NCBI GenBank assembly: GCA_949290565.1 | Contig: CASESH010000018.1 | Span: forward strand, 1,585 to 65,584 | Direction: 5' to 3' | DNA from: an uncultured Christensenella sp. | GTDB lineage: Bacteria > Bacillota > Clostridia > Christensenellales > UBA1242 | DNA: 64,000 nucleotides | Shown: positions 27,528 through 57,236 of the stretch, in pieces | How the letters are laid out: each line of letters opens with the position of its first letter | Numbering within the stretch: the stretch's first letter is position 1 | Translations under genes and position numbers: made by a program | The notes under the pieces: generated by a model | The model's input: the letters and a program-made list of their open reading frames with translations, nothing else | What the model was told of the DNA's origin: nothing | Databases searched by the model: none

Positions 27528-27532
27528 TTTTT

Positions 27533-42231: not shown

Positions 42232-42261
42232 AAAAAAAGAGAGGGCTAAAAATTCCCTCTC
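42232..42261 (-). terminator. Rho-independent terminator closing the phage-like operon
   Basis: GAGAGGG-ctaaaaatt-CCCTCTC (42239-42261). On the minus strand it is followed by T7. It begins 9 nt after the stop at 42270. Confidence 0.75.
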
Positions 42262-42269
42262 AAAAAAAT

Positions 42270-42815
42270 TTAATCATTTTTTTTATTTAACTCTTTATTT
42301 ATTTCATCAGCAATTTCATTGCTAGATATTTTTGATTTAGATTTATATTTTAACACGCCAAGTCCAACAAGAATAGAAAGCACGACAGCACAAACATCAA
42401 CAATTATGTTAACACATAAATCAACTCCAAATGACAAGCAAATTGCCTGAGTAATGGCAAGAACTGAACAAATAATTGTAATCCAAAAAGAAAGAGAATT
42501 TACTTTGTTTTTTTCTTCGATGCCTAAATCGTTTGTAATAGAATTAGAAGAATCATCATTTTCATTCATATAAGTAGTATTTGCAATTTCACTACCATAA
42601 CTTTTTGGTACTAAACGAGAAGCCGTTTTTATATTTGTCTGAACACAAGTTGTGTTGTTTAAATTATTGTTTTGATTTTGATTTATCAAAGAATTGGAAC
42701 TGTCGCTAAAATTATTAAAATTAATTTCACTTCCGTCTTCTTGCAAATTATTTAAGGAATTATCAATTATATTAGATGAAATATTATAAGAGTTATCAAG
42801 GCTATTTTTACTCAA
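42270..42815 (-). CDS. membrane protein with an N/S-rich N-terminus and two C-terminal TM helices (holin-partner-like)
   Basis: 181 aa. TTG start overlaps the TGA stop of the BhlA-like gene (ATTGA). TM segments FWITIICSVLAITQAICLSFG and IIVDVCAVVLSILVGLGVL. The function is inferred from context only. Confidence 0.55.
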   Translation of the reverse strand: MSKNSLDNSYNISSNIIDNSLNNLQEDGSEINFNNFSDSSNSLINQNQNNNLNNTTCVQTNIKTASRLVPKSYGSEIANTTYMNENDDSSNSITNDLGIEEKNKVNSLSFWITIICSVLAITQAICLSFGVDLCVNIIVDVCAVVLSILVGLGVLKYKSKSKISSNEIADEINKELNKKND

Positions 42816-43033
42816 TTTTCTCTATCTCCCTTTTTAAGTAGTGTAGAGCGAATCTCTTTTAGTTCTTGCTTAATATCTTCGACAGTATCTAAATGCTGAT
42901 TTAATTTAGAAATAGTATCTTGATATTTTTTTTCTCTCTTAGCACTATCTTTTAACTGATAGACAAGCAAAGAAACAAACAGCACAGCCCAAGCCCCATT
43001 TGTAACTGCTTGGTTAAAAACTTCTTCCCACAT
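42812..43033 (-). CDS. BhlA/UviB-family holin-like protein
   Basis: 73 aa. One N-terminal TM followed by a charged coiled tail. NGAWAVLFVSLLVYQLKDSAKREKKY parallels the BhlA pattern G.FAVLF..LL.Y..K.S..RE.K. RBS not obvious. Confidence 0.6.
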   Translation of the reverse strand: MWEEVFNQAVTNGAWAVLFVSLLVYQLKDSAKREKKYQDTISKLNQHLDTVEDIKQELKEIRSTLLKKGDREN

Positions 43034-43311
43034 AAAATTTAATTAACTGTTTAGAATTTTTTTAAAACCTTCTTTAATTTTTTTTTCATAAATCTTCTTT
43101 TTTTTCATAAACCCTCTACATAATTAAAACAAGACAAAGTTATAATTAATAAATTAGATTTAAAAAATACCATTAAGGCACAAGATAAAAACTAGAAAGA
43201 GTAAAACAAATTAAATAAGAAAAATGTTAAGATAAATCTAGTAAAAAAACTAAAAATTTATATAACTTTGTCTTAAAAAAAGTTAATTTTTTTCACATTT
43301 TAAAATAAAGT

Positions 43312-44778
43312 TTATTTTGGTTGTTTAAAATTAAACTGCAACAAAGTAATGTCAAAATCTTCCAAACTAGAAGTAATATCATATCTAAAAATCGTACCTG
43401 AAATATTAACTCTAATTTTACGCAAATTAGGACTTTCTGGAATCTTGTATGTTCGAACTTTGTCATCAAAATGAATAGTCAAATCAAATTCTTTGTTGCA
43501 AATGACTTCTATATCTTTAAGAATGTTCTTTTGAGTAAAGTTGTCAAATAATAAGTTAGGACTTTCAAACTTTTTGTCAAGTACCGAAGAACCAACTTTA
43601 CCCGTATCATTTAAAACCCATAATTTGTTGCTATTATTTAAAGCAATAACTAAACGTTTGTAAAAAAGATAGTTTACTGAAACCATAGAAACAATATCAA
43701 CGCCATATAAAATATTATACTCTTGTGTTGCTAAATCAAATTCAACAAGCGCGTTATTTGAACTTAAAACTTCATCATTAAAACCAATTTTGCAAGCAAT
43801 GTAAAGTTTATTATCGTGGTAGCAGGTGTTGGCTTGTTCTTGGTCATACTCGGCAAGTTTTTCACAAATTGAACTGTCAACTTTTTTAACATCATAGCCA
43901 TCAAAAGAATAAAGTCCATCTTGTTGTAAAAAATATATTTTTTCTCCACAAATACAAACGCTATCACAATAAATCTTTTGACCTGCGTCATAAATATTGC
44001 TAGTTGTAAAATCACTTTTTAAATAAGTATTAATCTTGCTAATTCCAAAATCTCTAAACACATAAACGTTGTCTAGAAATGAAATCAAGTTTTTTAATTC
44101 GCCCTTATAATCGTTTAATTCTAACATTCCGGCGTCTTCACTTTCGGTAGTGTTCTTTAACCAATCAAGAGGGTTACAGTTGGCGCTGTACCTAACAATA
44201 TAATCCCACTTGGTATCAATAGCAAACAATCTATCATTATGAAAACACACACTTTTAAAACTAGGCGCAGTATCAACTGTGATAGGGTCCTCATCGCAAA
44301 ACCATACAAGCAAGTTATCGCTCTTTGATGAAAAGCCCATAACATCATCACCACTAATTCTAAAATTAATACCAATAGGAGACTCGTTAAAAGTATGATT
44401 AATGCAATAGTAGTCATCATTTAGAAAGAAAAGAGGAGTATAGTAAACTTTTTTATCCTGACAAATGACGACTAAAAAATAAAGAAAAGTTTGGTTATCG
44501 TGACTAAAACATCTATATCTAAAAATTTTTTTAACATTACTAGGAATTGGGTTGCGAGTTACGAAAGTAGAAGGACTAGAATGTAAAGTACTAATTGGAA
44601 TAGTAATTTCCTCTAAACCATTACCCAAGACTAACCTACCTTCCCTAGATTTAAGGTTATAGCAAACGCTAGGATTAACATAGTTGTTATTATAGGCTTT
44701 CTTTTTAGCAAGAGAAGTGGAAAAATTGTCAATAAAAAATTTCAGATTGCCAAAATCATTTTCATCAAAATAATTCAT
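43312..44778 (-). CDS. phage-associated structural protein of unknown type (possible tail/adsorption component)
   Basis: 488 aa from the ATG at 44778 (RBS AGAGGTGG). It is translationally coupled to the upstream gene (TAATG). Beta-rich, non-repetitive sequence. The role is guessed from its position after the head genes. Confidence 0.55.
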   Translation of the reverse strand: MNYFDENDFGNLKFFIDNFSTSLAKKKAYNNNYVNPSVCYNLKSREGRLVLGNGLEEITIPISTLHSSPSTFVTRNPIPSNVKKIFRYRCFSHDNQTFLYFLVVICQDKKVYYTPLFFLNDDYYCINHTFNESPIGINFRISGDDVMGFSSKSDNLLVWFCDEDPITVDTAPSFKSVCFHNDRLFAIDTKWDYIVRYSANCNPLDWLKNTTESEDAGMLELNDYKGELKNLISFLDNVYVFRDFGISKINTYLKSDFTTSNIYDAGQKIYCDSVCICGEKIYFLQQDGLYSFDGYDVKKVDSSICEKLAEYDQEQANTCYHDNKLYIACKIGFNDEVLSSNNALVEFDLATQEYNILYGVDIVSMVSVNYLFYKRLVIALNNSNKLWVLNDTGKVGSSVLDKKFESPNLLFDNFTQKNILKDIEVICNKEFDLTIHFDDKVRTYKIPESPNLRKIRVNISGTIFRYDITSSLEDFDITLLQFNFKQPK

Positions 44779-45338
44779 TAAAACCACCTCTTAGCCTTGA
44801 CGAACGCAAAAGTTTTGTACGCACGGGCGACCTTGTCATCAAAAGCCTTACGATAATAAGCAGAATCATCTAGAACACCACTAAGTAAAAAGAATTCACT
44901 AGCGACACCCATAGCGATAGTTCTAGCGCCGATAAAATTGAACTCGTTGACCTTGTCGTTGATACTGCTTACGCTAGGAATGTAAGAAAAATCAACACAA
45001 ACAGGAATATTTGAATTAAAACAAAGTTTATCATCAGCAATGGAAAATTTAACCTTACCATTTTTAGAAAAAACCTTGTTTACTTTAATTAAGTTTGAGT
45101 GGATTTGACTTAAAGGAAATTCGCAGTCGCCATGACTGACAATAATAGTCACTTTTGAAGGTTTAGATTTAGTAGTTGCCAACTCGTGTAAAATTCCATT
45201 TAATGCAATGAGCAACTTATCGAATTCAGTTTGAACCTCAGAACTAACTTGGTCAGCATTACCTTCAAAAATAGGTTCAAGTCTGTCATAGTTATCTACA
45301 TAAGCACTAGCAAGTTGCAGAATTTCTAAAACAGTCAT
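44778..45338 (-). CDS. phage-associated protein, possible head-completion/connector protein
   Basis: 186 aa with a strong RBS (AAAGGAGAAG). Position downstream of the capsid gene. No motif recognised. Confidence 0.55.
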   Translation of the reverse strand: MTVLEILQLASAYVDNYDRLEPIFEGNADQVSSEVQTEFDKLLIALNGILHELATTKSKPSKVTIIVSHGDCEFPLSQIHSNLIKVNKVFSKNGKVKFSIADDKLCFNSNIPVCVDFSYIPSVSSINDKVNEFNFIGARTIAMGVASEFFLLSGVLDDSAYYRKAFDDKVARAYKTFAFVKAKRWF

Positions 45339-45381
45339 AATACTTCTCCTTTTAAGAAAAGACTAGATAAAGGGGCAAAAG

Positions 45382-45741
45382 TTAAATCCATCTAGTCGTG
45401 TTTGCCTTTTCAAAATTAACAACTCCACCCCGTTTGTCAGCAAAAACTAACTTTTGTTTTAAATCAAAAATATTTTTATTTTTTAATTCTAATTCTTCTT
45501 TTTCTTTAAGTTTTTTGTTATTTTGACTAACTTCCAAAAGAATAGATTTTTTTCGCCTAATATGAGTGTAGAGTGCTCTTTTAAGTGCTAAACAATCTAA
45601 TTTTGTGCCAATACTAAAAGCAAATTGATTTTTGAACTTTGCATAGTAGTTGTTTTTATGATAGAATATAGCATATTCTCTTTCAATTTTTTTTAGTCTT
45701 GAAGATATGTTAAATAAGTCATTTGTAATTAATTTTTCCAT
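45382..45741 (-). CDS. phage-associated basic protein, unknown function
   Basis: 119 aa with RBS AAAGGGG, lysine-rich. Immediately downstream of the capsid gene. Confidence 0.5.
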   Translation of the reverse strand: MEKLITNDLFNISSRLKKIEREYAIFYHKNNYYAKFKNQFAFSIGTKLDCLALKRALYTHIRRKKSILLEVSQNNKKLKEKEELELKNKNIFDLKQKLVFADKRGGVVNFEKANTTRWI

Positions 45742-45770
45742 TTTACCCCTTTGACCTAATCTAAAATTTT

Positions 45771-46937
45771 TTAGTTAGAAGCAACAATCTTTGAAATCTT
45801 GCCTTGTCCACCTGGTCTATCACAAATGAGTTCGGCATATTTTACAAGTGTTGCTGAATATGTTGGATTGTTTGAAGATGGAATTAAAATGTTGCCATTT
45901 TCAGTTTGTAACCATTCCCAATCGCAAAGTTGGTGTAAATTGAAATCTTTGGTGTTAAGTAAGTACATTGTACCACTATCAACAAATCTTTCATAAACAA
46001 CAGGAATTCCTGCATATGTCATTGTCTTGTAACCACCTTCTAAAACTGCAACATCAATGTTTCTTTTATACTTTGACAAGTACTCTTGATAAAGTGTTCT
46101 AACATCTCCTGAAACAGCAATAAAGTCAATTTGATTACCTGTTTCTTCTTCTATTGAATTAAGAGCATTTTGAATTACACTATCGCTAATTGGAGTTGAA
46201 GTTGTACCGGCAAATTCATAAGGATAAAGCCATTTATATGAACTTCTATCTACGCCGTAAATAGTTGAATTAGATGTACTTGTATCAAAAATTCTCTTAA
46301 TACCTGTTATTTCATTATCCTTTGAACCACTTGCATAGAGTTTGTCTCCAACTGCAAAAGTGAATTCCTTGCTAAAAACAACAGTGTTATTCTTTCTATC
46401 TACGAACTCTACAACTACCCCTTCTTCTTCTAAGGCGCCATCAGAATAAATATCTACTTTCATTCCTTCAACCAAGTTTTTGACGCTATCAAATTTTGTA
46501 CCGGCACTTACATCGCTAACAGTTGCAACAAGTCCTGTCCCATCTCCGTATAACATACGGCCAAGATTAAACGAACTTGACTTTATTAAACTTTCCATCT
46601 CGTCGCTTAATAAATTAACAAACGCACCAACATTGGACATACTTGCTCTAATTGCCTTGTCTGAAATTTCAATCTTGCCATACAAGTTTTTTAACCCTGT
46701 CTTGAATTGTAAAAATTTGTGTGAACTTGCACTTGGTAAATTGCCTGTTTCAGTTGTAGCACAAATTCCACCATTTAAACCATATGGGGCTAGTTTGATA
46801 ATCTCTTTACCAAAAACATCTTTGCTAGATTGTTTTATTCTAGAAAGTAAAGCATTTGACTTTAAGTTAAGTTGTTCGCTTATTACTCCTAAATAAACTG
46901 ATTTTAAAGCATTTTCTGCTGATTGAATTGTAACCAT
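45771..46937 (-). CDS. phage major capsid protein (probably HK97-fold)
   Basis: 388 aa with RBS AAGGGGA. Its size, its position after a scaffold-like gene, and the stretches LYGKIEISDKAIRAS..FVNLLSDEMESL, RMLYGDGTGLVATV and C-terminal YSATLVKYAELICDRP resemble capsid-family patterns. Not verified by search. Confidence 0.65.
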   Translation of the reverse strand: MVTIQSAENALKSVYLGVISEQLNLKSNALLSRIKQSSKDVFGKEIIKLAPYGLNGGICATTETGNLPSASSHKFLQFKTGLKNLYGKIEISDKAIRASMSNVGAFVNLLSDEMESLIKSSSFNLGRMLYGDGTGLVATVSDVSAGTKFDSVKNLVEGMKVDIYSDGALEEEGVVVEFVDRKNNTVVFSKEFTFAVGDKLYASGSKDNEITGIKRIFDTSTSNSTIYGVDRSSYKWLYPYEFAGTTSTPISDSVIQNALNSIEEETGNQIDFIAVSGDVRTLYQEYLSKYKRNIDVAVLEGGYKTMTYAGIPVVYERFVDSGTMYLLNTKDFNLHQLCDWEWLQTENGNILIPSSNNPTYSATLVKYAELICDRPGGQGKISKIVASN

Positions 46938-47309
46938 TTATTTTCCCCTTGTAATAAATTATGTTTTTTAGTTTAATAACCTTATAGTATAGAGAAATTC
47001 AAGCACATTCCTCTTTACTAAATAAGGTTACTTGTAGGGCAACTTTCTCACTTCGTTGACCTAACCTTTACGACAACCTATTTTAGCAAATTCAATAGGC
47101 TGAAAAACACGAATAAACAGCCCTAAAAAACTACCTACTTAACTATTAAATGATAGTAATTCAAAATTTTTTCTTCCTTTTTTTGATTGTTCTAAAATAT
47201 AATGCTTGACTCAATCTTAAATAAAAGAATGTTTAAAAAAAACAAATGAAATTTGTTTGGTTTAATTAAAACTTACTTTATACAAAAATAGTTAGAAAAA
47301 TTTTTTATT

Positions 47310-47567
47310 TTAGGACTTTTGCTTTGGTAAAGCACATTTACTAAGTATTCCCCCTGTTTCCATTTGAACTATTAATTCTCTTAAAGCCTTTGACTTAACT
47401 ATTTCATAAGACCTGATAAATTGACCTTCGCAAATTGTATGTAAAATGTTTGCAAAGCCAACTAAGTAGAATGACTTTAACAGTTTTCCAACTAATAGTT
47501 TTTGCCAAACTACAAGGCGAACTCTACTTATTATTAGTAAACATATCTCTAACAATCTTCTCGGCAT
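47310..47567 (-). CDS. possible small ORF overlapping the scaffold gene 3' end
   Basis: 85-aa track ORF. The ATG lies 44 nt inside the scaffold gene in another frame. Non-low-complexity, locally GC-richer sequence, but a weak RBS. Confidence 0.3.
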   Translation of the reverse strand: MPRRLLEICLLIISRVRLVVWQKLLVGKLLKSFYLVGFANILHTICEGQFIRSYEIVKSKALRELIVQMETGGILSKCALPKQKS

Positions 47568-48018
47568 CTTCTAAATTCTTTGGTTTACTAACCGGACTAA
47601 CTACAACATTGCTCCCTCTTTGCGAACCAATGAGAGTAGGAACAGAATCTAATTTAGTCTCAAAAATATACTTAGAAACAACTTTATCTCTAAGTTGTGC
47701 ATTAGATAAAATAAAATCAACTATCTCCTGTTCTTTGTCCTGCCAAGAAGTGCCTTCTTTAACTTCCTGTGGTGAAGAATTCTCCTCATTATCATCAAGT
47801 CGCTTTTGAAGACAAGCAAGTGATTGACATTTTTTAGTGTAATCACTTTGTAAATTATTGTAGGCCGTTAAAAGACTTTCGACATCTTTAAACTTGCCTA
47901 ACTTGGAGCCAATTTTGTTATCAAAACCTGACCTATTATCATCAACGCTATTAGCCTGCAAAAGTTCTTTGCCTTGTCCATTTGTAACGCATGGTTGTTC
48001 CAAAATATTTTCTTCCAT
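47524..48018 (-). CDS. phage scaffolding-like protein
   Basis: 164 aa with RBS AAAGGGGA. Helical and acidic. KFKDVESLLTAYNNLQSDYTKK and the C-terminal KPKNLEDAEKIVRDMF resemble scaffold proteins. Located between portal and capsid. Confidence 0.5.
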   Translation of the reverse strand: MEENILEQPCVTNGQGKELLQANSVDDNRSGFDNKIGSKLGKFKDVESLLTAYNNLQSDYTKKCQSLACLQKRLDDNEENSSPQEVKEGTSWQDKEQEIVDFILSNAQLRDKVVSKYIFETKLDSVPTLIGSQRGSNVVVSPVSKPKNLEDAEKIVRDMFTNNK

Positions 48019-48072
48019 AAAAATCCCCTTTTTAAATAAGATAAAAGAATAAACAAAAACTAAAACATTAGA

Positions 48073-48340
48073 TTTTGTTAAGTTAGTTAAAAAATAAGTT
48101 TTGTTAAGATTATTTAAGTTTTGTTAAGATTATTTAAGTTTTATTAACTTTTGTTAACTTTTATTAACTTTCGTTATGTTTTATTAAGTTTAATTAACTT
48201 TTATTAACTTTTATTAACTTTTATTAACTTTTATTAACTTTTATTAACTTTTATTAATTTTTATTAAGTTTTATTAAGTTTTATTAAGTTTTTGAAAGTT
48301 TTATTAAGTTTATTTAGGTTTAACTAAGATTTGTTAAGTT
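48073..48340 (-). repeat. 10-bp phased tandem array B (about 26 units; TTTTATTAAC/G on + strand, i.e. unit on minus strand)
   Basis: Read directly. From 48101 to 48340 every 10-nt print block is one unit (TTATTAACTT x7 in a row, TTATTAAGTT x5, TTGTTAAGAT/TATTTAAGTT 20-bp doublet x2). It ends 2 nt from the portal stop codon (48343). Confidence 0.95.
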
Positions 48341-48342
48341 TT

Positions 48343-49920
48343 CTAAATATTTATTCCAAAAATTTCTAAAACTTTATTCTTAAATTGTTCATCAATTTTG
48401 CCATTTTCATCTCTAAAAATGTCCGAATCAAGCAACTTTAAAATATGGTCTCTCTTTGTTGACAAACTTTCGCTTAGTGAACAGTCGCTCATAAAAACTA
48501 CATCTTCAAGTCCTAAGTCGCTACTTTTAAAGTATTTAACTGAAATCTCTTTCTTATCATTAGAAACTCTAATAAGTCTAGGCAAAACAGCAAACTGTTT
48601 ATAAAGTCTTAAAATCATTTTTGCCATACTCTTAACTGCGCCATCAATTTGTTCAATAGTCGAGTTAAGTCTTGAAGAATCTTGTTCAATTAAGAGTTCG
48701 AGTGCCGTACCGCTTAGAGAATTAGCACTAAATTGGTTAGACAAAATGTTAGTAACGCCACTAATTTCGCTAAATTCTTGTAAAAGACTTTCTTCTTCCT
48801 TATCGAAGCAACTAGGAAGGTTTTCTTCCTCTAAGAACTTAGGAGGCGTACCACCCTGCCTATAAATAATAACTTTGCCCGGTTCTAAACCATCTTGAAT
48901 AAGGTCCTCGACGTCAATACTGCCATCTTCGACAGTCAAAACACCCATAGAAATACGGTTTAAGAACTCGTGCTTTCTATTTTTAACAGCGTTGTAGGCT
49001 CTTTGAACGGGAATAATTTTACTAATGATACTTTTTCCCCAAAAACAACCTACGACTGAAAGACAATTTTGTTTAATGAAAGGAAAACCTCTTTTACCGT
49101 CAGGCAAATTAATAAATGGCAAATCGCCAACATAAAGCAACTTATCTTCACAAACGATAACAAGTCTGCCATTAGGAAACTGTTGCGAAGGGGCCTCATA
49201 TTTTTCAATCACAATGGCGTGGTCGTGTTTAGTGGAAGAAGAAAGAGAGGTCGAGGAATAGTCGAAAATATCAATATCTTTACCACTAACGTCAACGCCC
49301 CAAATATTCTTAATTGCTCTAACGCTGTAAGCCTTAGCGTGAATAATGCTCTCGCAATCATTAATGTCCTCGCAAGAATTATTGTCTGGAAAAATTTCAA
49401 ATGGAGAAACGGCGCAAACGCTAACTTCTCCTTCATAAACAAAGTCGCCACTAGAATTAGTAATTTTTTTACCCTGATTGTGATTCCAAACGACCTTGTA
49501 GAAACTAGTTCCGGTTATCTCGCTCCACTTTATCGCCTTAGAAATCACGCTTGACAAGTCAAGTTTTTCATAAACGCTACGCAAAATGTCTTGTGACAAG
49601 TCTGCAATTTGATGGTCATCTTTTGAAGGACTAGATGGAAGAATGTCCATTTCAGGCTTAACGGCAGTAAGTTTAGAAACTCTATCTTCAATAATTGAAG
49701 CAATGTGATTAAAGACATTTCTTTCTTGCCAAAAGTAACTTTTCTCGTTGTCCTCAATATCCATAAGAAGATTAATATTAGTGTATTGCTTACCAATAAA
49801 GAAATTATTATTTAGTCGCCACTCAGCCTCAAAAGGTTTTCTATCTTTTTGTCTTTTTTCAAAATCTTGCTTAACCGAGTTGATTAAATCTTCAATAAAC
49901 TCGCTTTTTTTCTTTCTCAT
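48343..49920 (-). CDS. phage portal protein
   Basis: 525 aa with RBS AAAGGAA. The N-terminal KPFEAEWRLNNNFFIGKQY is the portal-type pattern (E.EW..N..FY.G.QW). Its size and its position between terminase and scaffold fit. Confidence 0.65.
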   Translation of the reverse strand: MRKKKSEFIEDLINSVKQDFEKRQKDRKPFEAEWRLNNNFFIGKQYTNINLLMDIEDNEKSYFWQERNVFNHIASIIEDRVSKLTAVKPEMDILPSSPSKDDHQIADLSQDILRSVYEKLDLSSVISKAIKWSEITGTSFYKVVWNHNQGKKITNSSGDFVYEGEVSVCAVSPFEIFPDNNSCEDINDCESIIHAKAYSVRAIKNIWGVDVSGKDIDIFDYSSTSLSSSTKHDHAIVIEKYEAPSQQFPNGRLVIVCEDKLLYVGDLPFINLPDGKRGFPFIKQNCLSVVGCFWGKSIISKIIPVQRAYNAVKNRKHEFLNRISMGVLTVEDGSIDVEDLIQDGLEPGKVIIYRQGGTPPKFLEEENLPSCFDKEEESLLQEFSEISGVTNILSNQFSANSLSGTALELLIEQDSSRLNSTIEQIDGAVKSMAKMILRLYKQFAVLPRLIRVSNDKKEISVKYFKSSDLGLEDVVFMSDCSLSESLSTKRDHILKLLDSDIFRDENGKIDEQFKNKVLEIFGINI

Positions 49921-50255
49921 AATTCATTCCTTTTTATAAAATATATATTCAACTTCTAACCCCAAACTCGAAACAAAAAAAACAAATGAGCAATTAAAAA
50001 AGTAAAGAGGAAACAAATCCAATTTACTTTTTTTAGGATAATAAAACGCTATTATTTAAGAGTAATACTCTTGCATTTTACTTATATAAAATAAATATTT
50101 TATTATTTAAAGATAAGTTTTAAAAAAATATAAAATCATTTAAAACAATTAAAAAAATTGTTTGTGAAATAGAAGGTTAAAAAAAATTCAAAAACAGTTA
50201 AAAGTTTGTAAATTAAAAAATAAAAGAGTAAGAAGTTTAAAGGTTAAAAGAAAAA

Positions 50256-50585
50256 CTAATTTGATTGCTCACTTAAAATTTTAATCAGTCTATTTTTTTC
50301 AGTCAACAACTCCTCATCACTAAAATTAGAGTAATCGCAACAATCAGATGACGAAGAATTATTCATTTCACACAAAATTTTAATAGAATTAATATCAGGT
50401 GCGTGTTTTCTAGTAGTAATCTTTTGAGATTTAAGAGTTTTGTTCCCCTCTTTGTCGCAAACGAATTCTTCCACGCACTCACTAGTAGTGTAACCCTTTG
50501 CTAAATAGGAAAGCGAATCAAACAAAAAACTTTCCTGCCCGGGCAAAACATTTTTACAATCTTGATTATTTTTTTTTCTACCCAT
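50256..50585 (-). CDS. hypothetical protein, weak resemblance to the C-terminal half of XtmA-type small terminase subunits
   Basis: 109 aa from the internal ATG (MGRKKNNQD...). KITTRKHAPDINSIKILCEM resembles the ..LPPDv.A.kfwL.. segment of TerS, and FSDEELLTEKNRLIKIL is also TerS-like. No N-terminal HTH is seen, and it is located after terL rather than before it. Confidence 0.3.
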   Translation of the reverse strand: MGRKKNNQDCKNVLPGQESFLFDSLSYLAKGYTTSECVEEFVCDKEGNKTLKSQKITTRKHAPDINSIKILCEMNNSSSSDCCDYSNFSDEELLTEKNRLIKILSEQSN

Positions 50586-50941
50586 ATTGAAAATCCCAAA
50601 AAAAGTTTTAATGTAGTCAAAGCAAGAAACAAAAAAGTTTACAAGCAAATGACTTAAATATTTTTAAAAGTTTTAGCCTAACAAACATATCACAATTAAA
50701 ATTTTGTTAAAGTCTTTTTAATTGTCAGTTTTGTTTAGTAAAACAAATAGAAATTAAAGTAATTTAGATATTTATAATAAAATATTTTTGCAAAAATATA
50801 AAAAATTAAAAATTCTTATATAAAACATTAACAACTATTTTTAATAAAGGCGTAATTTATTTATTGTTAAAGTTTTATTTATAAAGTCGTACAACTTATT
50901 TAGAAACAAAAATTATCGCTAAATTTTGTTTAATTTAAACT

Positions 50942-52465
50942 TTATCTATATAATCTTTTTTTACGCATAAGTTCTTTTGCAACTTTGTCCTTATGTTTTT
51001 CAAGGTAAGTTTTAGGTCTAGCGTGAGGACTAGGTTTTGTCATAAGATAATATCTAAGTTCATCAAGGCAGTGGTCATCTTTTTTGACAGGCGTGTCGCC
51101 ACTCGACCAAAAATATGTTTTAAATTCTCTAATTAGATTAGTACAACAAGAAAAAATAAACAATCTAGCACGACCATTTGAATTTTTAATGTAAGACTTA
51201 ACCTGAGCAATTCCGGAAAACAAATCTTTATTTACTTTTGTATTCACAGCAATTCCCCTTTCATAAAATAGTTCGGCAACGCTTTTAACACCATTCAAAG
51301 TTCTTTGCCCGGCAGCGCTGTCAATAAGCGCCTCGTAATAACCCATATTGTTAGTGGGCCAATTTAAACTTTTACAAATGTTTTTTATTTTTTCAGCGTG
51401 ATAGTCAATGTCCTTACCTGCCTCAAAGTGCTCTTTTATAACATAAACATTTCCATCATAGTCAACGCAATACCAATGGCAAGCAAGAGGATTATTTAGT
51501 CCTGGGTCAATAGAAATTCCATCGTACCAATCGCTTGGAACATTAAACGGTTGAATAACATTAACTCTGTCGTCAAACTCTTTATAAACAAGTCCTTGGC
51601 TACCCGAAAACCTTCCATACTTTCTGGCATCGAGGTCATCAGTTGAGAGAGAGTTTTCAAAGAATTCAATCTCCTTCTCATCAAGGAAAGGGTTGTCGTT
51701 CCAATCCATTTGAATAAACCAAACCTCAGGGTTGTTTTTTTGATTTAAGAAAATCTCATCATAAACCCAACTCAAACCTTTTAAAGGAGTCATAGTACCA
51801 AAGAGTTCCCCCTTTTTATCAAGAACTCTCATTCGACATTCGAGATAAATGTCGTAACTAGGCTCCTCGTCAAACCAAACAAAATCTAAACTAGTTCCCT
51901 GGAATTTTTCACGACCTTGGTCGCAACTTTTAAACCCTATTGTGCTAGTCGAACCAAAAACATTTTTAATAAGGATATAATCAATAATACCATTTTCTGG
52001 GCTGTCTTTTTTACCTGAAAGCATAACAATTTCCTCAATCCAAAGAGGATTTAGATATTGCAAAATTTTTTTTTGAGCAACATCTCTTTGGACCTGTTTT
52101 GAAAGACTAACTACCCAGCCACTAACCGGGCCCTTATTATTTCTAAAAGGATGAATTCCCCTTGCTAAAAAAATAACCTCAACAGCACCACATTCAGTCT
52201 TGCCCGTTCTGTTGCCACCAAAAACCCACCTATTACGTTTTAAGCACTTGTGGAACTCCATTTGCTTTAAATGAACTTTTTCACCTGTATTGTAAGAAGC
52301 AAGTTTGTCAAAACGCTTTCTACTTTCGATTTCGCCATCAATTAAACCTAATTCCAAAACAGTTTTATAAAAAGAAGAACCGTTTTTTAAACCAAAAGCC
52401 GACTTACGATATCTTTTTTCAACTTCCAAAGCCACCAAAGTCAGCCTAGCAACTTCATCTCTCAT
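50942..52465 (-). CDS. terL: phage terminase large subunit
   Basis: Approx 507 aa from the ATG at 52465 (RBS AAAGGTGG). Walker A-like GGNRTGKTECGA, Walker B DFVWFDEEP, and the C-terminal nuclease motif DDHCLDELRY. Confidence 0.85.
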   Translation of the reverse strand: MRDEVARLTLVALEVEKRYRKSAFGLKNGSSFYKTVLELGLIDGEIESRKRFDKLASYNTGEKVHLKQMEFHKCLKRNRWVFGGNRTGKTECGAVEVIFLARGIHPFRNNKGPVSGWVVSLSKQVQRDVAQKKILQYLNPLWIEEIVMLSGKKDSPENGIIDYILIKNVFGSTSTIGFKSCDQGREKFQGTSLDFVWFDEEPSYDIYLECRMRVLDKKGELFGTMTPLKGLSWVYDEIFLNQKNNPEVWFIQMDWNDNPFLDEKEIEFFENSLSTDDLDARKYGRFSGSQGLVYKEFDDRVNVIQPFNVPSDWYDGISIDPGLNNPLACHWYCVDYDGNVYVIKEHFEAGKDIDYHAEKIKNICKSLNWPTNNMGYYEALIDSAAGQRTLNGVKSVAELFYERGIAVNTKVNKDLFSGIAQVKSYIKNSNGRARLFIFSCCTNLIREFKTYFWSSGDTPVKKDDHCLDELRYYLMTKPSPHARPKTYLEKHKDKVAKELMRKKRLYR

Positions 52466-52900
52466 TAAAACCACCTTTTCGACAAAAGAAGTATATTTTG
52501 CTAAAAATAGAAAAGTTAAAATAAACTATCAAAAGAAAATAATTACTAAAATACAAAAACATAAAATAAATTCTTTCTCTAAAATTAAAAACAAATTTTT
52601 AAACAAATTCTTAATCTCTATTAAATTTATTTAAACACAACTTTTTAAAACAATTAAATGACTAAAACACCTATAAATGTAAACAATTATAATAAAAGCC
52701 AATTTGCAAAAACACAAATCGACTTTTTGTAACTTTCAAAACTTTAATATTAAGAACTTTATTATTAAAATACTTAAAAATTAAAATGATTAAATTAGAT
52801 TAACAATAACTCAAAATCATTATGTTAAATGTAATAAATAAATTTGTATATTATATAAAAAATAGATTTACAAAACACAAATAAATTTTATTATTTAAAA

Positions 52901-53000
52901 AGTTTTATTAAGTTTATTTAACTTTTGTTAAGTTTTGTTAAGTTTAATAAAGTTATATTAGGTTTTGTTAACTTTTGTTAAGTTTTGTTAAGTATTTTAT
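52901..53000 (-). repeat. 10-bp phased tandem array C (10 units; AGTTTTGTTA type on + strand)
   Basis: Read directly: AGTTTTATTA AGTTTATTTA ACTTTTGTTA AGTTTTGTTA AGTTTAATAA AGTTATATTA GGTTTTGTTA ACTTTTGTTA AGTTTTGTTA AGTATTTTAT. It ends 5 nt before the AGGAGG RBS of the + strand gene. Confidence 0.9.
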
Positions 53001-53016
53001 TTTACAGGAGGTCAAA

Positions 53017-53808
53017 TTGAAAAAATTTTTACCAATCTTAATTGTCTTTTCGCTCATTTGCCTATTTATTGATACAAATTCGGTCAAGGCAAAATACACT
53101 AACTATGTTTATGCCAGAGTGCAAACAAGCGGAGTTTACTTATACAAATCGACCAATCCAACTCCCCAAAATTCATATTTTGAAATCCCGGCAACATATT
53201 TTGTATTACTCCTTTCCAACTATGACGCAAACTTTTACAAAGCACAATATAGAGATTATGTAGGCTATGTTCTTAAAAAAGAAGTAACGCCTGTTAACGA
53301 AACTCCACAAACTCCATTTTTAGAGACTCAAACATTTAGAGTTTACTCATCGGACGGAACAGGAATAAAATCAAGCCCGTTTGATAATGGAATAGTAATA
53401 GGTCAAGTAAAAGAACTAGAAGAAATAAACTATTATGGAAGCATAATAGGTCGAGAAGAAATAGACAAGCGAGGTAGTGTATGGGCATATGGCAAGACAT
53501 CAAATGGACAAGCAGGTTATTTTTATTGCGGTCTAATTGATGGACTAGAAAACATACCAATAAACACTGAAAGCACTACAATACTAGAAAATCCGTTTGA
53601 GGAAAATTCAAGCGACTACCTATACAACCTAGTTGATATAACTCCAATAGTAAAAATACTTATCATAGGACTAGTAACTATTCCGGCGATAGCAATATTA
53701 TGGCTAATATTTTTACCGAATACAAAACGACTTAAACCTAAGGGGATAAAAGTTAGTAAACCCCAAACTATTAAACAAATACAAGATTATAATGATGACT
53801 TATTATAA
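53017..53808 (+). CDS. secreted, C-terminally membrane-anchored protein with two SH3b-like repeats
   Basis: Start corrected to TTG at 53017 (AGGAGG at 53006-53011, 5-nt spacer); the track start at 52975 lies inside array C. Signal peptide KKFLPILIVFSLICLFIDTNSVKA. Two segments ending in ..FYKAQYRDYVGYVLKKEV and ..SNGQAGYFYCGLI resemble SH3b. C-terminal TM ILIIGLVTIPAIAILWLIFL. It is one of only two protein-coding genes (with sigK) and three features (with rnpB) on the + strand. Confidence 0.7.
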   Translation: MKKFLPILIVFSLICLFIDTNSVKAKYTNYVYARVQTSGVYLYKSTNPTPQNSYFEIPATYFVLLLSNYDANFYKAQYRDYVGYVLKKEVTPVNETPQTPFLETQTFRVYSSDGTGIKSSPFDNGIVIGQVKELEEINYYGSIIGREEIDKRGSVWAYGKTSNGQAGYFYCGLIDGLENIPINTESTTILENPFEENSSDYLYNLVDITPIVKILIIGLVTIPAIAILWLIFLPNTKRLKPKGIKVSKPQTIKQIQDYNDDLL

Positions 53809-53990
53809 TAAGATAAATCTTAGCCTTAAAAAATAATAAATTTTAGTAAATTTTACGGTTTTATATTAAGAAGTTTTTAATTAGAAATAAAATATATAAG
53901 TCAAATATAAAATTTATACTCTATATTAATTATTTATATTTATAAGTTGAATAAAAATAATTTATTAATTATCTAGGCTAAAAAATATTA

Positions 53991-54150
53991 AGTTTTATTA
54001 AGTTTTGTTAACTTTATTTAACTTTTGTTAAGTTTTTTTAACTTTTGTTAAGTTTTTTTAACTTTTGTTAAGTTTTGTTAAGTTTCGTTAAGTTTTGTTA
54101 ATTTTATTAAGTTTTGTTAAGTTTTGTTAAGTTTTGTTAAGTTTAATAAA
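53991..54150 (-). repeat. 10-bp phased tandem array D (16 units; AGTTTTGTTA type on + strand)
   Basis: Read directly. It includes a 20-bp doublet ACTTTTGTTAAGTTTTTTTA x2 (54021-54060). There is a single 9-bp unit near 54101, after which the register shifts by one. Confidence 0.92.
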
Positions 54151-54828
54151 CTTTTTTTAATAATTATTTTATAACTTTACTATAAATAGTTAAAGTAAAA
54201 ACAAATTAAGTAAAAGGAAACTAGCAAAATATAATTTCTTTTAATCATAATAATAAAGAATGTTAAAATTAAAAAATTCCAACAAACAAATAAAAACAAA
54301 ATAAATATTAACTAAAATATTTTTAGAAAACATATAAATTGTTTTATTTTTAGTACTAAAATAAGTAAGAATTAGCACTAAAAAAATCTAAATTACTTTA
54401 TACCCTTTTTTAAACTTATGATTGAATAATATAAAAGAAATTAAAGATAAAATAATTTCTTTGATATAAATTGAACAATTCCAAAACAATTTAGAAAAAC
54501 TACAAATAAATTTATAAGAATTAATGAAATCAACAATTTGTAAATTTTAAATACCAAATATAAATATATTAAAACAACCTAAACAAGCAACAAAATAAGA
54601 AAATAACTTATGAGAAATTAAAGTGTTGAGGATTAATTAATCAAAAGAAAGTAATAAAAAACAAATAAATAAAAATAAAAAACTAAAAAATTTGCTTAAT
54701 TAAGTATTAATAATAAAAATATAAAAAGTAATTTAAAAAGAAATAAAAGCAAGTGAACAAATCATTATAAAAACAAATTGATAAAAATTAATACTTATAA
54801 AAATAGTAATTCATAATAAAAAAATGAA

Positions 54829-55464
54829 TTAATTGAACTTTCTAAGTTTGTTAATAATAAGACCGCACAAATAATCTCTATCATTTTTGAGCAGTCTTCC
54901 CTCGCTGTCATCAACACAAGCCCTATTAACCCTCTGCAAAATGTCGCTAAGAAAATTATCGCTGAAAACCTTTTGAGAGTTAGAGCAATTAGAGAGATTT
55001 TTAGAAAGTACTCTTTGGAAACGTTCGAGAGCAATCATAAGTTTTCTAAAAAAGGTTCTACGGTCCATATTAAAGAGAGCCGGGCAACTGCTAGAAGGAA
55101 TATTGTCAACATACCTAGCCATTAAGAGTTGAACGTAGTCAGATTTAAGTTCGGCGAGAGATTTATCGACAATACATTTAAAATTAAGTAAGTTGATTTT
55201 TTGCTGTTCAAGAAGAATAATCCCATCTGCTAAATCATAAAGAGTAAGACTCGAAGGCAAAATCATAGAATTAGAAGCCCTTGAAAGAACAAGTTTATCA
55301 ATCGACTTAACCAAGTTAGGAACACAAGAATAAACCGAAAGAAAGGAACGACTCCAAGTTCTCAAAGCCTTCTTGTCAAAATTGTTAGGATTAAAATCAT
55401 TCATAAGGAATTGAGTTGAGTCAACAGCAAAATCATCACTTATATTTAAAAAATCAAATTTCAT
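54829..55464 (-). CDS. hypothetical protein, possible sigma-70 region-4-like / phage late-gene regulator
   Basis: 211 aa with a strong RBS (GGAGG 5 nt upstream). LSELKSDYVQLLMARYVDNIPSSSCPALFNMDRRTFFRKLMIALERF has the spacing of a sigma region-4 / DUF1492-type HTH. Weak, by eye only. Track ORF 54795..55034 overlaps out of frame and is spurious. Confidence 0.55.
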   Translation of the reverse strand: MKFDFLNISDDFAVDSTQFLMNDFNPNNFDKKALRTWSRSFLSVYSCVPNLVKSIDKLVLSRASNSMILPSSLTLYDLADGIILLEQQKINLLNFKCIVDKSLAELKSDYVQLLMARYVDNIPSSSCPALFNMDRRTFFRKLMIALERFQRVLSKNLSNCSNSQKVFSDNFLSDILQRVNRACVDDSEGRLLKNDRDYLCGLIINKLRKFN

Positions 55465-56579: not shown

Positions 56580-57236
56580 TTAAGCGAGTTTATCTTGCTC
56601 GACATTTAAAGAATTGATATTATCATCAAGCATACAAATTTTGTTGATAGAAATTTCGTAAGCGACTCTTGTTTCTACGCAGTCGTCATCTAACTTTTTT
56701 TGGTACTCCCTACTTTGAATACGACCTATAATACTAACTTTTTGACCGACAACAAAATTTTTTAAATATCTAGCATTTCTACCCCAAGCGATAGCAGGTA
56801 AATAATCTGACTTATTGTAAGACCTATTTACAGCAATAAGAACATCACAAATTTCACGACCGAAAGGCGTAGTTCTAAAAACGGGCTCTTTGCAAATAAA
56901 GCCACTAATTTCGACAAGATTTGGGTTCATAGAATAGTCAATCTCGACAACACTTCTAACAAAAACATTGAGAATAAGTTTACTTTTTCCATCTACAAAC
57001 TTGTTGTAACTTCTAAACTGACCCTGAACGGCCACAAGATTACCCACGACAAAAGAGTTATCGAGCAACTTTTCGCTAATAATGACAGGAATAGTGTCAA
57101 AATTATTAGACAATCTTTCGATATTAATAAAAACCTCATAGAAGCCTTCGCCAAAAGATTCGTGGCTAAAAACGGGCGCAGAAGCAACAGTACCTCTTAA
57201 AAAAACTTTGTTATTTTCCATCAATTCGTAATTCAT
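56580..57236 (-). CDS. tandem-OB-fold single-stranded DNA-binding-like protein
   Basis: 218 aa with RBS AAGGGAGA. Two SSB/PriB-like OB repeats: NKVFLRGTVASAPVF..VAVQGQFRSYN and NLVEISGFICKEPVFRTTPFGREICDVLIAVNRS..LPAIAWGRNARYL..VGQKVSIIGRIQSREYQ. No acidic C-terminal tip. Confidence 0.7.
   Translation of the reverse strand: MNYELMENNKVFLRGTVASAPVFSHESFGEGFYEVFINIERLSNNFDTIPVIISEKLLDNSFVVGNLVAVQGQFRSYNKFVDGKSKLILNVFVRSVVEIDYSMNPNLVEISGFICKEPVFRTTPFGREICDVLIAVNRSYNKSDYLPAIAWGRNARYLKNFVVGQKVSIIGRIQSREYQKKLDDDCVETRVAYEISINKICMLDDNINSLNVEQDKLA

What the first reader, a model, noticed from the sequence alone, without database searches (positions are those of the whole stretch)
42232..55464. Tail-less, integrase-less capsid and DNA-packaging island embedded among core genes
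The region encodes a sigma-like regulator, TerL, a TerS-like ORF, portal, scaffold, capsid, three unknown proteins and a holin pair, closed by a strong terminator.

I could not recognise any of the following:
- integrase, excisionase or repressor
- replication enzymes
- prohead protease
- tail tube, tape measure or baseplate
- endolysin
- att repeats

The gene set is close to the minimum for making and filling a capsid. Three readings are possible. It could be a decayed prophage. It could be a capsid-forming satellite, as in cf-PICI-type elements that borrow helper tails. It could be a domesticated GTA-like particle system. The ORFs are intact with good RBSs (AAAGGGG/AGGTGG types) and show translational coupling (TAATG, ATTGA), which argues for maintained function rather than decay.
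Basis: partly seen in the sequence, partly recalled or inferred. Interest (0 to 1): 0.75.

Follow-up and report, generated by a model that had tools for sequence, protein, structure and literature searches.

The report
Domesticated short-tailed phage particle island
This 13 kb block is an old phage head, DNA-packaging, stub-tail and lysis module that uncultured gut Clostridia have kept intact under selection, at a largely conserved chromosomal site, across more than a hundred species, which makes it a strong candidate for a new gene-transfer-agent-like particle system.

Summary
The 491-aa "unknown" protein folds as a podovirus tail nozzle (AF2 pLDDT 88; Foldseek E 1e-21, TM 0.72 to the phage Pa223 and VP1 nozzles; also SU10, P22 gp10, T7 gp12).

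The module has the same gene order in every related locus that spans it. It occurs in about 125 species-level genomes of uncultured Christensenellales-type gut Clostridia. Where flanks are visible they are mostly the same host genes (pdaB-ssb on one side, rnj-sigK on the other).

No integrase, replication genes or att repeats were found. dN/dS is 0.04-0.06 for TerL, portal, capsid and nozzle, the same as for RNase J next door. Island divergence tracks host-gene divergence. IMG/VR holds only this island, not a complete phage carrying it.

This rules out a decaying prophage and a mobile capsid-forming satellite. It supports a vertically inherited, domesticated particle system of GTA type.

It is a different lineage from the recently described Faecalibacterium FpGTA, because the capsid family differs and there is no Prp protease. 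The window's copy is the most reduced version: no fibre-like protein, no DUF7934, no Zn-ribbon protein, and a portal lacking its C-terminus.

Particle formation, cargo and transfer are untested.

The parts
54829..55464 (-). Sigma-70 region-4 / DUF1492-type transcription regulator, first gene of the island
   Evidence: phrog_36 E 9e-4. In the aligned family, 12/23 members hit Sigma70_r4_2 and 9/23 hit DUF1492. It sits in the same position in all relatives whose contig reaches it.
52975..53808 (+). Divergently transcribed membrane-anchored protein with two SH3b-like (cell-wall-binding type) domains. It is conserved between the regulator and TerL in every relative.
   Evidence: Family profile hits the SH3b domains of autolysin 4krt (E 3e-4), 2kt8, 2kyb and 6biq. 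Position and strand are the same in all loci. dN/dS is 0.07. There is no catalytic domain.
50942..52474 (-). Large terminase (probable ATG at 52465, behind AAAGGTGG)
   Evidence: Terminase_6N 7e-12, Terminase_6C 7e-7, phrog_2 1e-34. ATPase and nuclease motifs are intact. Identity to the window is 52-78% in relatives (59-78% over full-length copies). dN/dS is 0.048.
50256..50648 (-). Small conserved protein (about 100-110 aa from the internal ATG); candidate small terminase without a DNA-binding domain
   Evidence: The family is conserved directly after TerL in nearly all loci. No Pfam, PHROG or PDB hit. The role is inferred from position and size only.
48343..49920 (-). Portal protein, P22/SU10 type. 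It lacks the C-terminal ~90 aa present in most relatives.
   Evidence: P22_portal 5e-19, SU10_portal 3e-9, phrog_156 2e-33. The alignment shows the C-terminal truncation is shared with L001. dN/dS is 0.037.
47524..48018 (-). Candidate scaffolding protein
   Evidence: Lies between portal and capsid in all loci. No family hit. dN/dS is 0.20. Role inferred from position.
45771..46937 (-). Major capsid protein, podovirus type
   Evidence: NF033394 capsid_maj_Podo 8e-73. phrog_14242 5e-51. More than 5,800 homologous clusters. dN/dS is 0.047.
45382..45741 (-). Conserved 119-aa protein of unknown role (head completion or neck?)
   Evidence: A positionally conserved ORF of about 80-140 aa lies between capsid and p186 in nearly all loci; sequence similarity to the window's copy is detectable only in the closer relatives, and the positional family aligns with 38% mean column identity. 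No hit in Pfam, PHROGs, NCBIfam or PDB.
44778..45338 (-). Conserved 186-aa protein, candidate head-to-tail adaptor, translationally coupled (TAATG) to the nozzle
   Evidence: Always directly upstream of the nozzle, as SU10 gp16 is upstream of gp17. The AF2 model has low confidence (pLDDT 47). hhalign against SU10 gp16 is negative. PDB profile search is negative.
43312..44787 (-). Podovirus tail nozzle / hub protein (probable ATG at 44778)
   Evidence: AF2 pLDDT 87.8, pTM 0.89. Foldseek PDB hits: 9nwi_Y E 1.4e-21 TM 0.72; 8zkk_O TM 0.74; SU10 7z4b; P22 gp10 8u10; T7 gp12. Weak profile match to SU10 gp17. dN/dS is 0.061.
42812..43033 (-). BhlA-family holin
   Evidence: PF10960 2.6e-18.
42270..42815 (-). 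Phage_holin_1-type holin with a lineage-specific N/S-rich N-terminal extension
   Evidence: PF04531 6.7e-5, phrog_297 2.9e-8. The L001 homologue is only 130 aa.
42232..42262 (-). Intrinsic terminator closing the operon
   Evidence: GAGAGGG-aatttttag-CCCTCTC followed by TTTTTTT, read directly.
40841..41785 (-). 314-aa polytopic membrane protein that follows the island in many relatives; whether it belongs to the island is uncertain
   Evidence: Present between the island and RNase J in L001, L003, L005 and many GTDB loci at 28-69% identity. No family hit.
56580..57236 (-). PRK05813-type two-OB SSB immediately upstream of the island; a conserved neighbour whose membership is uncertain
   Evidence: NF004476 2e-84, phrog_26861 1e-31. 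Adjacent to the regulator in two deep clades. It has its own terminator-like hairpin at 56293-56270.

Best explanation
The island is a domesticated, vertically inherited remnant of a P22/SU10-like short-tailed phage. It retains only the late module.

**Retained genes**
- A DUF1492 / sigma-region-4 activator.
- A divergently transcribed SH3b membrane protein.
- TerL.
- A small TerS candidate with no DNA-binding domain.
- Portal, scaffold and capsid.
- Two small neck proteins, one probably the adaptor.
- The tail nozzle.
- Two holins.

**Proposed mechanism** (inferred, not shown)
1. The activator switches on the single operon that ends at the terminator.
2. Procapsids assemble on the portal.
3. 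TerL fills them by headful packaging with whatever DNA is available, mostly chromosomal.
4. Adaptor and nozzle close the portal.
5. The holins, with a muralytic activity encoded elsewhere or supplied by the cell, release the particles.

This is a gene-transfer-agent-like (viriform) system in uncultured Christensenellales-type gut Clostridia.

**Shown here:** gene identities, the nozzle fold, conserved order and site, purifying selection, co-divergence with the host, and absence of mobility and replication genes.

**Inferred:** particle formation, random host-DNA cargo, release, and delivery to recipients.
For: **Structural and packaging genes are identified and intact**.

**The same gene order is found wherever it can be seen.**
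- All of the roughly 44 loci that span TerL to nozzle share it.
- About 125 species-representative genomes carry the nozzle.
- At 55%, 41%, 32% and 27% nozzle identity the island is flanked, wherever the fetched flank reaches far enough, by pdaB-ssb on one side and/or mem314-rnj(-sigK) on the other; both sides are seen together only in L001 and L003.
- A 48% GC relative also has RNase J downstream.

**Selection is strong.**
- dN/dS between close species pairs: TerL 0.048, portal 0.037, capsid 0.047, nozzle 0.061, SH3b protein 0.07. RNase J is 0.05.
- Window versus L001: pN 0.13-0.39 against a saturated pS of 0.55-0.74.
- A 99.2%-identical strain has 18 indels in the aligned 9.6 kb, none inside the nine genes checked.

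**The island diverges with its host.**
- Island-versus-host pairwise identities correlate (Spearman 0.44-0.96).
- TerL is 59-78% identical across full-length copies, where RNase J falls to 40%.

**No sign of mobility or of a free phage.**
- No integrase, replication gene or att site.
- IMG/VR contains only short contigs of this same island. Plausible real phages appear only at 36% capsid identity or less.

**Literature context.** GTA-like packaging of 4-7 kb chromosomal fragments has been seen in Christensenellaceae MAGs in human faecal VLPs, with no locus assigned. A podovirus-like GTA-type element (FpGTA) was shown experimentally in Faecalibacterium (PMC12946183).
Against: - There is no experimental or read-mapping evidence that this island makes particles, what they carry, or that DNA is delivered.
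- The window copy lacks any fibre, spike or receptor-binding protein, ejection proteins and an endolysin. It also lacks the portal C-terminus and the Zn-ribbon protein that most relatives keep. This lineage may be losing function or may depend on unseen loci.
- The regulator is phage-type, not a demonstrated host regulator.
- The TerS and adaptor assignments are positional only.
- The co-divergence statistics use non-independent pairs.
- Capsid capacity relative to the 13 kb locus is unknown.
Confidence: 0.55

Rival explanations
1. A domesticated particle kept for something other than gene transfer. Possibilities include a killing or lysis particle (as argued for PBSX), a programmed eDNA or altruistic-lysis device, a decoy that packages or competes with invading phage DNA, or a sporulation-linked function. 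The neighbours are pdaB and sigK, and in one relative spoIIGA-sigE-sigG-spo0A.
For: Conservation and selection are equally compatible with this reading. The window version has no receptor-binding or ejection proteins. Sporulation genes flank the island. The FpGTA authors themselves leave open a PBSX-like non-transfer role.
Against: TerL, portal and nozzle are as constrained as housekeeping genes, which argues that DNA packaging and a sealed exit channel matter. No toxin or effector gene lies in the island. The sporulation link is adjacency only, and the right flank varies between clades.
Confidence: 0.25
2. A capsid-forming satellite (cf-PICI-like) that makes its own small capsids and borrows missing tail parts from a helper phage.
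For: The gene set is limited to head and packaging functions plus a late-activator-type regulator. No fibres are encoded.
Against: No integrase, att site, replication/primase module or helper-sensing repressor. The chromosomal site is fixed and divergence tracks the host over about 125 species. The island encodes its own nozzle. A podovirus-type neck cannot accept the siphovirus or myovirus tails that cf-PICIs hijack (established knowledge, not tested here).
Confidence: 0.04
3. A decaying cryptic prophage remnant with no maintained function.
For: The window lineage has lost several genes that relatives keep, and its intergenic regions are inflated by 10-bp repeats.
Against: All ORFs are intact in the window and in every relative that spans them. 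dN/dS is 0.04-0.2. pN is far below pS in this lineage too. In a near-identical strain no indel falls inside the nine genes checked.
Confidence: 0.03
4. Part of an ordinary, complete prophage or of an active integrase-less temperate podovirus whose other modules lie elsewhere.
For: Distant capsid, portal and TerL relatives (24-36% identity) sit on 42-60 kb IMG/VR contigs that look like real phages.
Against: In the window the island is bounded by rnj/rnpB/sigK on one side and ssb/pdaB/gyrA/gyrB on the other, and everything else in 64 kb is housekeeping. The same holds in the relatives whose called genes and Pfam hits were inspected. No complete phage carries this nozzle family in IMG/VR.
Confidence: 0.03

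Closest known systems
FpGTA of Faecalibacterium prausnitzii (PMC12946183, Nat Commun 2026)
   Same: Both are integrase-less chromosomal operons of about 10-13 kb in gut Clostridia. Both encode TerL, a small TerS-like protein without a DNA-binding domain, portal, scaffold-position protein, capsid and short-tailed-phage-type hypothetical proteins. FpGTA was shown to make ~40 nm particles that look tail-less and carry ~8.5-9 kb of random host DNA. Its fibre and endolysin genes lie in a second locus.
   Different: The lineage differs.
- The FpGTA capsid is annotated N4-gp56 family, and a Prp-type protease gene lies between portal and capsid.
- This capsid is NF033394 capsid_maj_Podo with no N4-gp56 hit. 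The intervening protein is not a protease.
- Here the TerS candidate follows TerL.
- The holins are inside this island.
- The host clade is Christensenellales-type, not Ruminococcaceae.
- No experimental data exist for this element.
RcGTA-type gene transfer agents of Alphaproteobacteria (viriforms; PMC9662315)
   Same: A phage-derived head, packaging and tail cluster with no replication or integration genes. It is vertically inherited and under purifying selection across a whole bacterial order. Accessory genes (lysis, fibres) are scattered elsewhere.
   Different: RcGTA is siphovirus-like, with a protease, tail tube and tape measure, an HK97-type capsid, and control by host CtrA/GafA. This element is podovirus-like, has no protease, and carries a phage-type DUF1492 regulator. 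The two have independent origins.
P22 / SU10 / T7-type podovirus virion module
   Same: P22/SU10-family portal, podovirus capsid family, and nozzle fold (TM 0.55-0.74). The adaptor-position gene lies directly upstream of the nozzle, as in SU10 gp16-gp17. There is no prohead protease.
   Different: No tail fibres or spikes, needle or plug, or ejection/internal core proteins. No endolysin, replication module or lysogeny module. The nozzle is half the size of SU10 gp17. Sequence identity to any phage capsid is 26% or less, and the nozzle has no tblastn hit in 50,697 phage records.
Capsid-forming PICIs (cf-PICI)
   Same: A small island encoding its own capsid, portal and terminase, but an incomplete virion.
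   Different: cf-PICIs are mobile (int, att, rep, helper-responsive regulation) and lack tail genes. This island is immobile and syntenic across species, and it has a nozzle.

Membership tests
Gene transfer agent / viriform (criteria as in PMC9662315 and the introduction of PMC12946183) | Caudoviricete-derived structural and packaging genes resident in the cellular chromosome | tested here: met
   TerL, portal, capsid and nozzle identified. The flanks are housekeeping genes.
Gene transfer agent / viriform | No genes for autonomous replication, integration/excision or lysogeny control | tested here: met
   None found by Pfam, PHROGs or NCBIfam in the island or anywhere in the 64 kb window. No att repeats.
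Gene transfer agent / viriform | Vertical inheritance with the host lineage, under purifying selection | tested here: met
   Conserved order and site. dN/dS 0.04-0.06. Spearman 0.44-0.96 against host genes. The caveat is that the pairs are not independent and no formal tree reconciliation was done.
Gene transfer agent / viriform | The capsid holds less DNA than the encoding locus, so the element cannot transfer itself | not testable with these tools
   T number and capacity are unknown. The locus is 13.2 kb. GTA-like fragments in Christensenellaceae MAGs were 4-7 kb, but the link to this locus is not established.
Gene transfer agent / viriform | Packages essentially random host DNA and delivers it to recipient cells | not testable with these tools
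   Needs sequencing of the VLP DNA and transfer assays.
Gene transfer agent / viriform | Production controlled by host regulatory circuits | tested here: inconclusive
   The island has its own DUF1492/sigma-r4 regulator. No recognisable host-regulator site was identified. The promoter scans were uninformative in this AT-rich DNA.
FpGTA (Faecalibacterium) lineage | [quoted passage not shown] | tested here: not met
   The window capsid hits NF033394 capsid_maj_Podo (245 bits) and no N4-gp56 model at E <= 0.1. The FpGTA capsid RCH50849.1 is named N4-gp56 family. No direct sequence comparison was possible.
FpGTA (Faecalibacterium) lineage | Prp-type cysteine protease gene between portal and capsid | tested here: not met
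   The 164-aa protein at that position has no protease hit. RCH50850.1 is annotated Prp.
FpGTA (Faecalibacterium) lineage | Second locus with baseplate, fibre, RBP and endolysin | not testable with these tools
   Only 64 kb of the genome is available, and no such genes lie in it.
Capsid-forming PICI satellites | Integrase with att sites, replication module, helper-responsive regulation | tested here: not met
   None found. The locus is fixed across species.
Capsid-forming PICI satellites | No tail genes (tails borrowed from a helper) | tested here: not met
   The nozzle is encoded in the island.
P22/SU10/T7-like podovirus virion module | Portal, capsid and nozzle of podovirus type | tested here: met
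P22/SU10/T7-like podovirus virion module | Adaptor (gp4 / gp11 / gp16 type) between portal and nozzle | tested here: inconclusive
   The 186-aa protein is in the right position. However, the AF2 model is unusable and the profile comparisons are negative.
P22/SU10/T7-like podovirus virion module | Tail fibres or spikes, and ejection / internal core proteins | tested here: not met
   None in the window. Some relatives carry a 740-830 aa GLUG / Listeria-Bacteroides-repeat protein, DUF7934 proteins or a phrog_5302 tail protein.

The most novel reading that the evidence does not exclude
This island family is an ancient gene transfer agent of independent origin, specific to Christensenellales-type gut Clostridia. 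It would be the unassigned genetic basis of the 4-7 kb GTA-like chromosomal packaging seen in Christensenellaceae MAGs (HGM11616, QANA01) in human faecal virus-like particles. [quoted passage not shown]
Probability: 0.4. Interest if true: 0.8.

Novelty: new variant of a known kind. Interest (0 to 1): 0.7.

Why it matters
Very few GTA-type systems have an identified locus. Outside Alphaproteobacteria almost none do, and the first podovirus-like one (FpGTA) was reported only in 2026.

This finding adds a second, evolutionarily separate podovirus-derived element. Its signature of domestication is clear:
- a conserved locus in about 125 species,
- selection as strong as on a housekeeping neighbour,
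- no mobility genes.

The host group consists of abundant but almost entirely uncultured gut bacteria. The finding gives a concrete candidate locus for GTA-like packaging signals that currently have no genetic explanation.

The family also shows a natural series of reduction: with or without the fibre-like protein, DUF7934, the Zn-ribbon protein and the portal barrel. That series could show which parts a minimal DNA-packaging particle needs.

Tried and rejected
1. **Direct homology test against FpGTA.** I could not obtain the Faecalibacterium sequences. Cluster look-ups of nozzle representatives returned no useful names. I fell back on the NCBIfam family names, which differ.

2. **Structure of the 186-aa adaptor candidate.**
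   - The last protein search found only 2 homologues.
   - The resulting model had pLDDT 47 and is unusable.
   - hhalign against SU10 gp16 and a PDB profile search were both negative.

3. **TerS assignment.** No Pfam, PHROG or PDB support was found. It is kept only as a positional candidate.

4. **Promoter, terminator and motif scans of the regulatory regions.** Sigma-70-like hits were at the shuffle expectation (94 against 87). The TerL upstream region is conserved only within clades. No regulator site was assigned.

5. **The 10-bp repeat arrays flanking the SH3b gene as regulator-binding sites.** Rejected. The same repeats occur in unrelated intergenic regions of the window and are absent from relatives.

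6. **A split gyrB at the window edge.** Rejected. The frame simply continues off the window.

7. **The three unknown proteins at 26601-30076 as a second particle locus.** There is no phage signal.

8. **First dN/dS pass.** Using all pairs with dS below 1.5 mixed in saturated pairs. It was redone on close pairs only.

9. **Rfam.** It found only RNase P RNA in the window and nothing in the island.

Full report
**What is in the window**

The window is about 28% GC, and nearly all its genes lie on the minus strand. Outside the flagged block everything identifiable is housekeeping:
- rpoD, dnaG, priA, ligA, pcrA
- hrcA-grpE-dnaK-dnaJ, lepA, hemN, mgsA
- sigK, RNase P RNA, RNase J
- a PRK05813-type SSB, sporulation deacetylase pdaB, gyrA and gyrB

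The island runs from the regulator gene (54829-55464) to a strong intrinsic terminator just after the second holin at about 42232-42262.

**Checking the observation**

These assignments are solid:
- TerL: Terminase_6N/6C, phrog_2 1e-34.
- Portal: P22_portal 5e-19, SU10_portal, phrog_156 2e-33.
- Capsid: phrog_14242 5e-51; NCBIfam capsid_maj_Podo 8e-73.
- Both holins: BhlA 2.6e-18; Phage_holin_1/phrog_297.

The TerL ATPase and nuclease motifs are intact in the translation.

The regulator is recognisable only at family level. Among 23 aligned orthologues, 12 hit Sigma70_r4_2 and 9 hit DUF1492. By my own knowledge, this is the superfamily of late-operon activators of Gram-positive phages.

The TAATG and ATTGA gene overlaps are real.

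No integrase, repressor, replication gene, protease, tape measure or muralytic domain was found by three profile libraries. Flanking direct repeats do not exceed shuffled expectation.

The labels "scaffold" and "TerS-like" rest on position only.

**The main correction: the island has a tail part**

I built an alignment of 34 homologues of the 491-aa ORF. The AlphaFold model is confident, with pLDDT 87.8 and pTM 0.89.

Foldseek against the PDB returns almost exclusively podovirus nozzle or hub proteins at the top:
- Pseudomonas phage Pa223 tail, E 1.4e-21, TM 0.72
- Vibrio phage VP1, TM 0.74
- SU10, GP4, PhiM1, P22 gp10, T7 gp12, crAss001 muzzle

A weak profile match to SU10 gp17 covers the same conserved strands.

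The 186-aa gene directly upstream is translationally coupled to the nozzle. It occupies the position of the adaptor, as SU10 gp16 does relative to gp17. I could not confirm this assignment:
- The word-indexed search found only two homologues.
- The model was poor, with pLDDT 47.
- Profile comparisons were negative.

The particle encoded here would therefore be a head with a portal-(adaptor)-nozzle stub. It would lack fibres, needle and ejection proteins.

**Distribution and synteny**

The nozzle family is found only in uncultured Clostridia MAGs.

A scan of one genome per GTDB species found 125 genomes with a relative. The 80 retained are all gut MAGs labelled Clostridia, "Christensenella sp.", Christensenellales, Candidatus Caccopulliclostridium, Candidatus Onthoplasma or Pumilibacteraceae.

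An exhaustive profile search finds 1,862 clusters at 50% identity. The capsid has more than 5,800 clusters at 90% identity.

In every locus that spans TerL to nozzle (about 44) the order is identical:

1. regulator
2. SH3b membrane protein on the opposite strand
3. TerL
4. optional 740-830 aa protein
5. ~100 aa protein
6. ~71 aa four-Cys protein
7. portal
8. scaffold
9. capsid
10. ~100-138 aa protein
11. ~186-219 aa protein
12. nozzle
13. optional DUF7934 and other proteins
14. holin(s)

Host flanks at decreasing nozzle identity:
- 55% (L001): ssb upstream; mem314-rnj-sigK-mgsA downstream.
- 41% (L003): ssb upstream; mem314-rnj-sigK downstream.
- 32% (L005): mem314-rnj downstream; the upstream flank is not reached.
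- 27% (L006): pdaB-ssb upstream; the downstream genes are different.

One clade instead has spoIIGA-sigE-sigG-spo0A downstream. A 48% GC relative also has RNase J downstream.

**Selection and descent**

dN/dS between closely related species pairs:

| Gene | dN/dS |
|---|---|
| TerL | 0.048 |
| Portal | 0.037 |
| Capsid | 0.047 |
| Nozzle | 0.061 |
| SH3b protein | 0.07 |
| Scaffold | 0.20 |
| RNase J (host neighbour) | 0.05 |

- For the window against its nearest species-level relative L001, synonymous sites are saturated (pS 0.55-0.74) while pN is 0.13-0.39.
- A 99.2%-identical strain differs by 18 indels over the aligned 9.6 kb, none inside the nine genes checked.
- TerL stays at 59-78% identity across full-length copies, while RNase J drops to 40%.
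- Pairwise identities of island proteins correlate with those of flanking host genes, with Spearman 0.44-0.96. The pairs are not independent, so this is supportive rather than a formal test.

**No free phage counterpart**

- The nozzle has no tblastn hit in 50,697 phage records.
- The capsid is at most 26% identical to any phage capsid in that set.
- In IMG/VR, the 11 nozzle hits, and those capsid hits of 45% identity or more whose gene content I examined, are the same chromosomal island; several of the nozzle-hit contigs carry pdaB/ssb flanks and one long capsid-hit contig carries rnj. Many of the shorter capsid hits were not examined.
- Only contigs at 36% capsid identity or less (L142, L150, L151) look like full phages.
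- Some island variants carry a different post-capsid module (L103, L127, L141, L147). Tail parts have therefore been exchanged within the family.

**Interpretation**

Decay is excluded by the selection data. A mobile satellite is excluded by the fixed locus, the missing int/att/rep genes and the island's own nozzle. An ordinary prophage is excluded by the flanks.

What remains is a domesticated particle system. I think the most likely mode of action is that of a gene transfer agent:
1. The activator switches on the operon.
2. Procapsids assemble.
3. A Terminase_6-type TerL packages DNA by headful. The headful mechanism is inferred from family membership. The small partner protein has no DNA-binding domain.
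4. The adaptor and nozzle close the portal.
5. Holins release the particles.

A non-transfer role remains a serious alternative. It could be killing, eDNA release, defence or something sporulation-linked. The window version encodes no receptor-binding protein, no ejection proteins and no endolysin.

**Comparison with the literature**

PMC12946183 (Nat Commun 2026) describes FpGTA in Faecalibacterium:
- A 10.5 kb operon encodes TerS (no DNA-binding domain), TerL, portal, scaffold, capsid and short-tailed-phage-like hypothetical proteins.
- It makes ~40 nm particles with no visible tail that carry ~8.5-9 kb of host DNA.
- A second locus encodes the fibre, RBP, holin and endolysin.

The same study saw GTA-like packaging in Christensenellaceae MAGs without identifying a locus: HGM11616 at 4.1/7.1 kb and QANA01 at 6.3 kb.

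The present island is analogous but not the same lineage. FpGTA's capsid is named N4-gp56 family, and a Prp protease gene lies between portal and capsid. This capsid is capsid_maj_Podo with no N4-gp56 hit, and there is no protease. I could not compare sequences directly.

No other paper in the library describes this element.

**The window's copy is the most reduced form**

Compared with most relatives, the window and L001 lack:
- the 740-830 aa GLUG / Listeria-Bacteroides-repeat protein after TerL,
- the DUF7934 proteins after the nozzle,
- the 71-aa Zn-ribbon protein,
- about 90 C-terminal residues of the portal.

Island proteins have also diverged somewhat faster than host genes in this lineage. 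Nozzle is 56% and p186 52%, against RNase J 82% and MgsA 89%. They are still clearly under constraint.

**Verdict**

This is a new variant of a known kind: a GTA-like viriform derived from a podovirus. It is of real interest because of its breadth, its clean signature of domestication and its possible link to unexplained packaging signals in the gut. Its function remains inferred.

Noticed in passing
window 34622-34794, 48095-48342, 52900-52993, 53988-54144, 57335-57410, 58817-59010: There are six arrays of a 10-bp tandem repeat (TTAAGTTTTG or its complement), with 7 to 25 copies each, in intergenic regions inside and outside the island. One abuts the portal stop codon and two flank the SH3b gene. 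They are absent from the orthologous regions of relatives L001 and L003, and they account for part of this genome's inflated spacers. The 10-bp phasing suggests bent DNA or a spreading microsatellite. The cause is unknown.
   Followed up: partly
window 61445-62713 (N-terminal part of ORF 59045-62713): The GyrA reading frame carries an in-frame N-terminal extension of about 420 aa. It is acidic, N/D/E/S-rich low-complexity sequence with no PDB match. The gyrase A homology starts at residue 424. It is either a real disordered extension or the true start is internal.
   Followed up: partly
window 42270-42815: The Phage_holin_1 protein has an N/S-rich low-complexity N-terminal extension of about 95 aa. 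This is missing from the 130-aa orthologue in L001. It is the same kind of low-complexity expansion as in GyrA.
   Followed up: no
window 46938-47523: There is a 587-nt spacer between the scaffold and capsid genes, compared with 53 nt in L001. It has no homologue in any fetched locus and no Rfam match. The 240 nt just upstream of the capsid start (46960-47200, minus strand) fold much better than shuffles (z = -3.7, 0 of 200). It may be a leader or a small RNA. No covariation test is possible.
   Followed up: partly
L004, L005, L035, L040, L052-L058 (after TerL); L005, L038, L044 (after nozzle); L054 10123-12477: More distant versions of the island carry extra genes.
- A 740-830 aa protein with a GLUG motif and Listeria-Bacteroides repeats.
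- One or two DUF7934 proteins.
- In one clade, a 784-aa phrog_5302 tail protein.

These are likely fibre or receptor-binding parts that the window lineage has lost.
   Followed up: partly
L103, L127, L141, L147 (IMG/VR contigs): These are island variants with the same TerL-portal-scaffold-capsid genes (47-54% capsid identity). After the capsid they carry a different set of proteins (about 516, 374, 946, 365 and 204 aa) instead of the p186-nozzle pair. This suggests tail-module replacement within the family.
   Followed up: no
most relatives, e.g. L003 4607-4828, L004 5190-5405: A conserved ~71-aa protein with four cysteines (C-x4-C ... C-x2-C, zinc-ribbon-like) sits just before the portal in most island copies. 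It is missing from the window and from L001.
   Followed up: partly
window 26601-30076: Three consecutive proteins (311, 302 and 402 aa; the last has acidic repeats) lie between hemN and hrcA. None has a hit in Pfam, PHROGs or NCBIfam.
   Followed up: partly
L004 13110-16993: In one clade the island is followed directly by spoIIGA-sigE-sigG and spo0A. In the window it lies between pdaB and sigK. The repeated adjacency to sporulation genes may be coincidence or may hint at its regulation.
   Followed up: no
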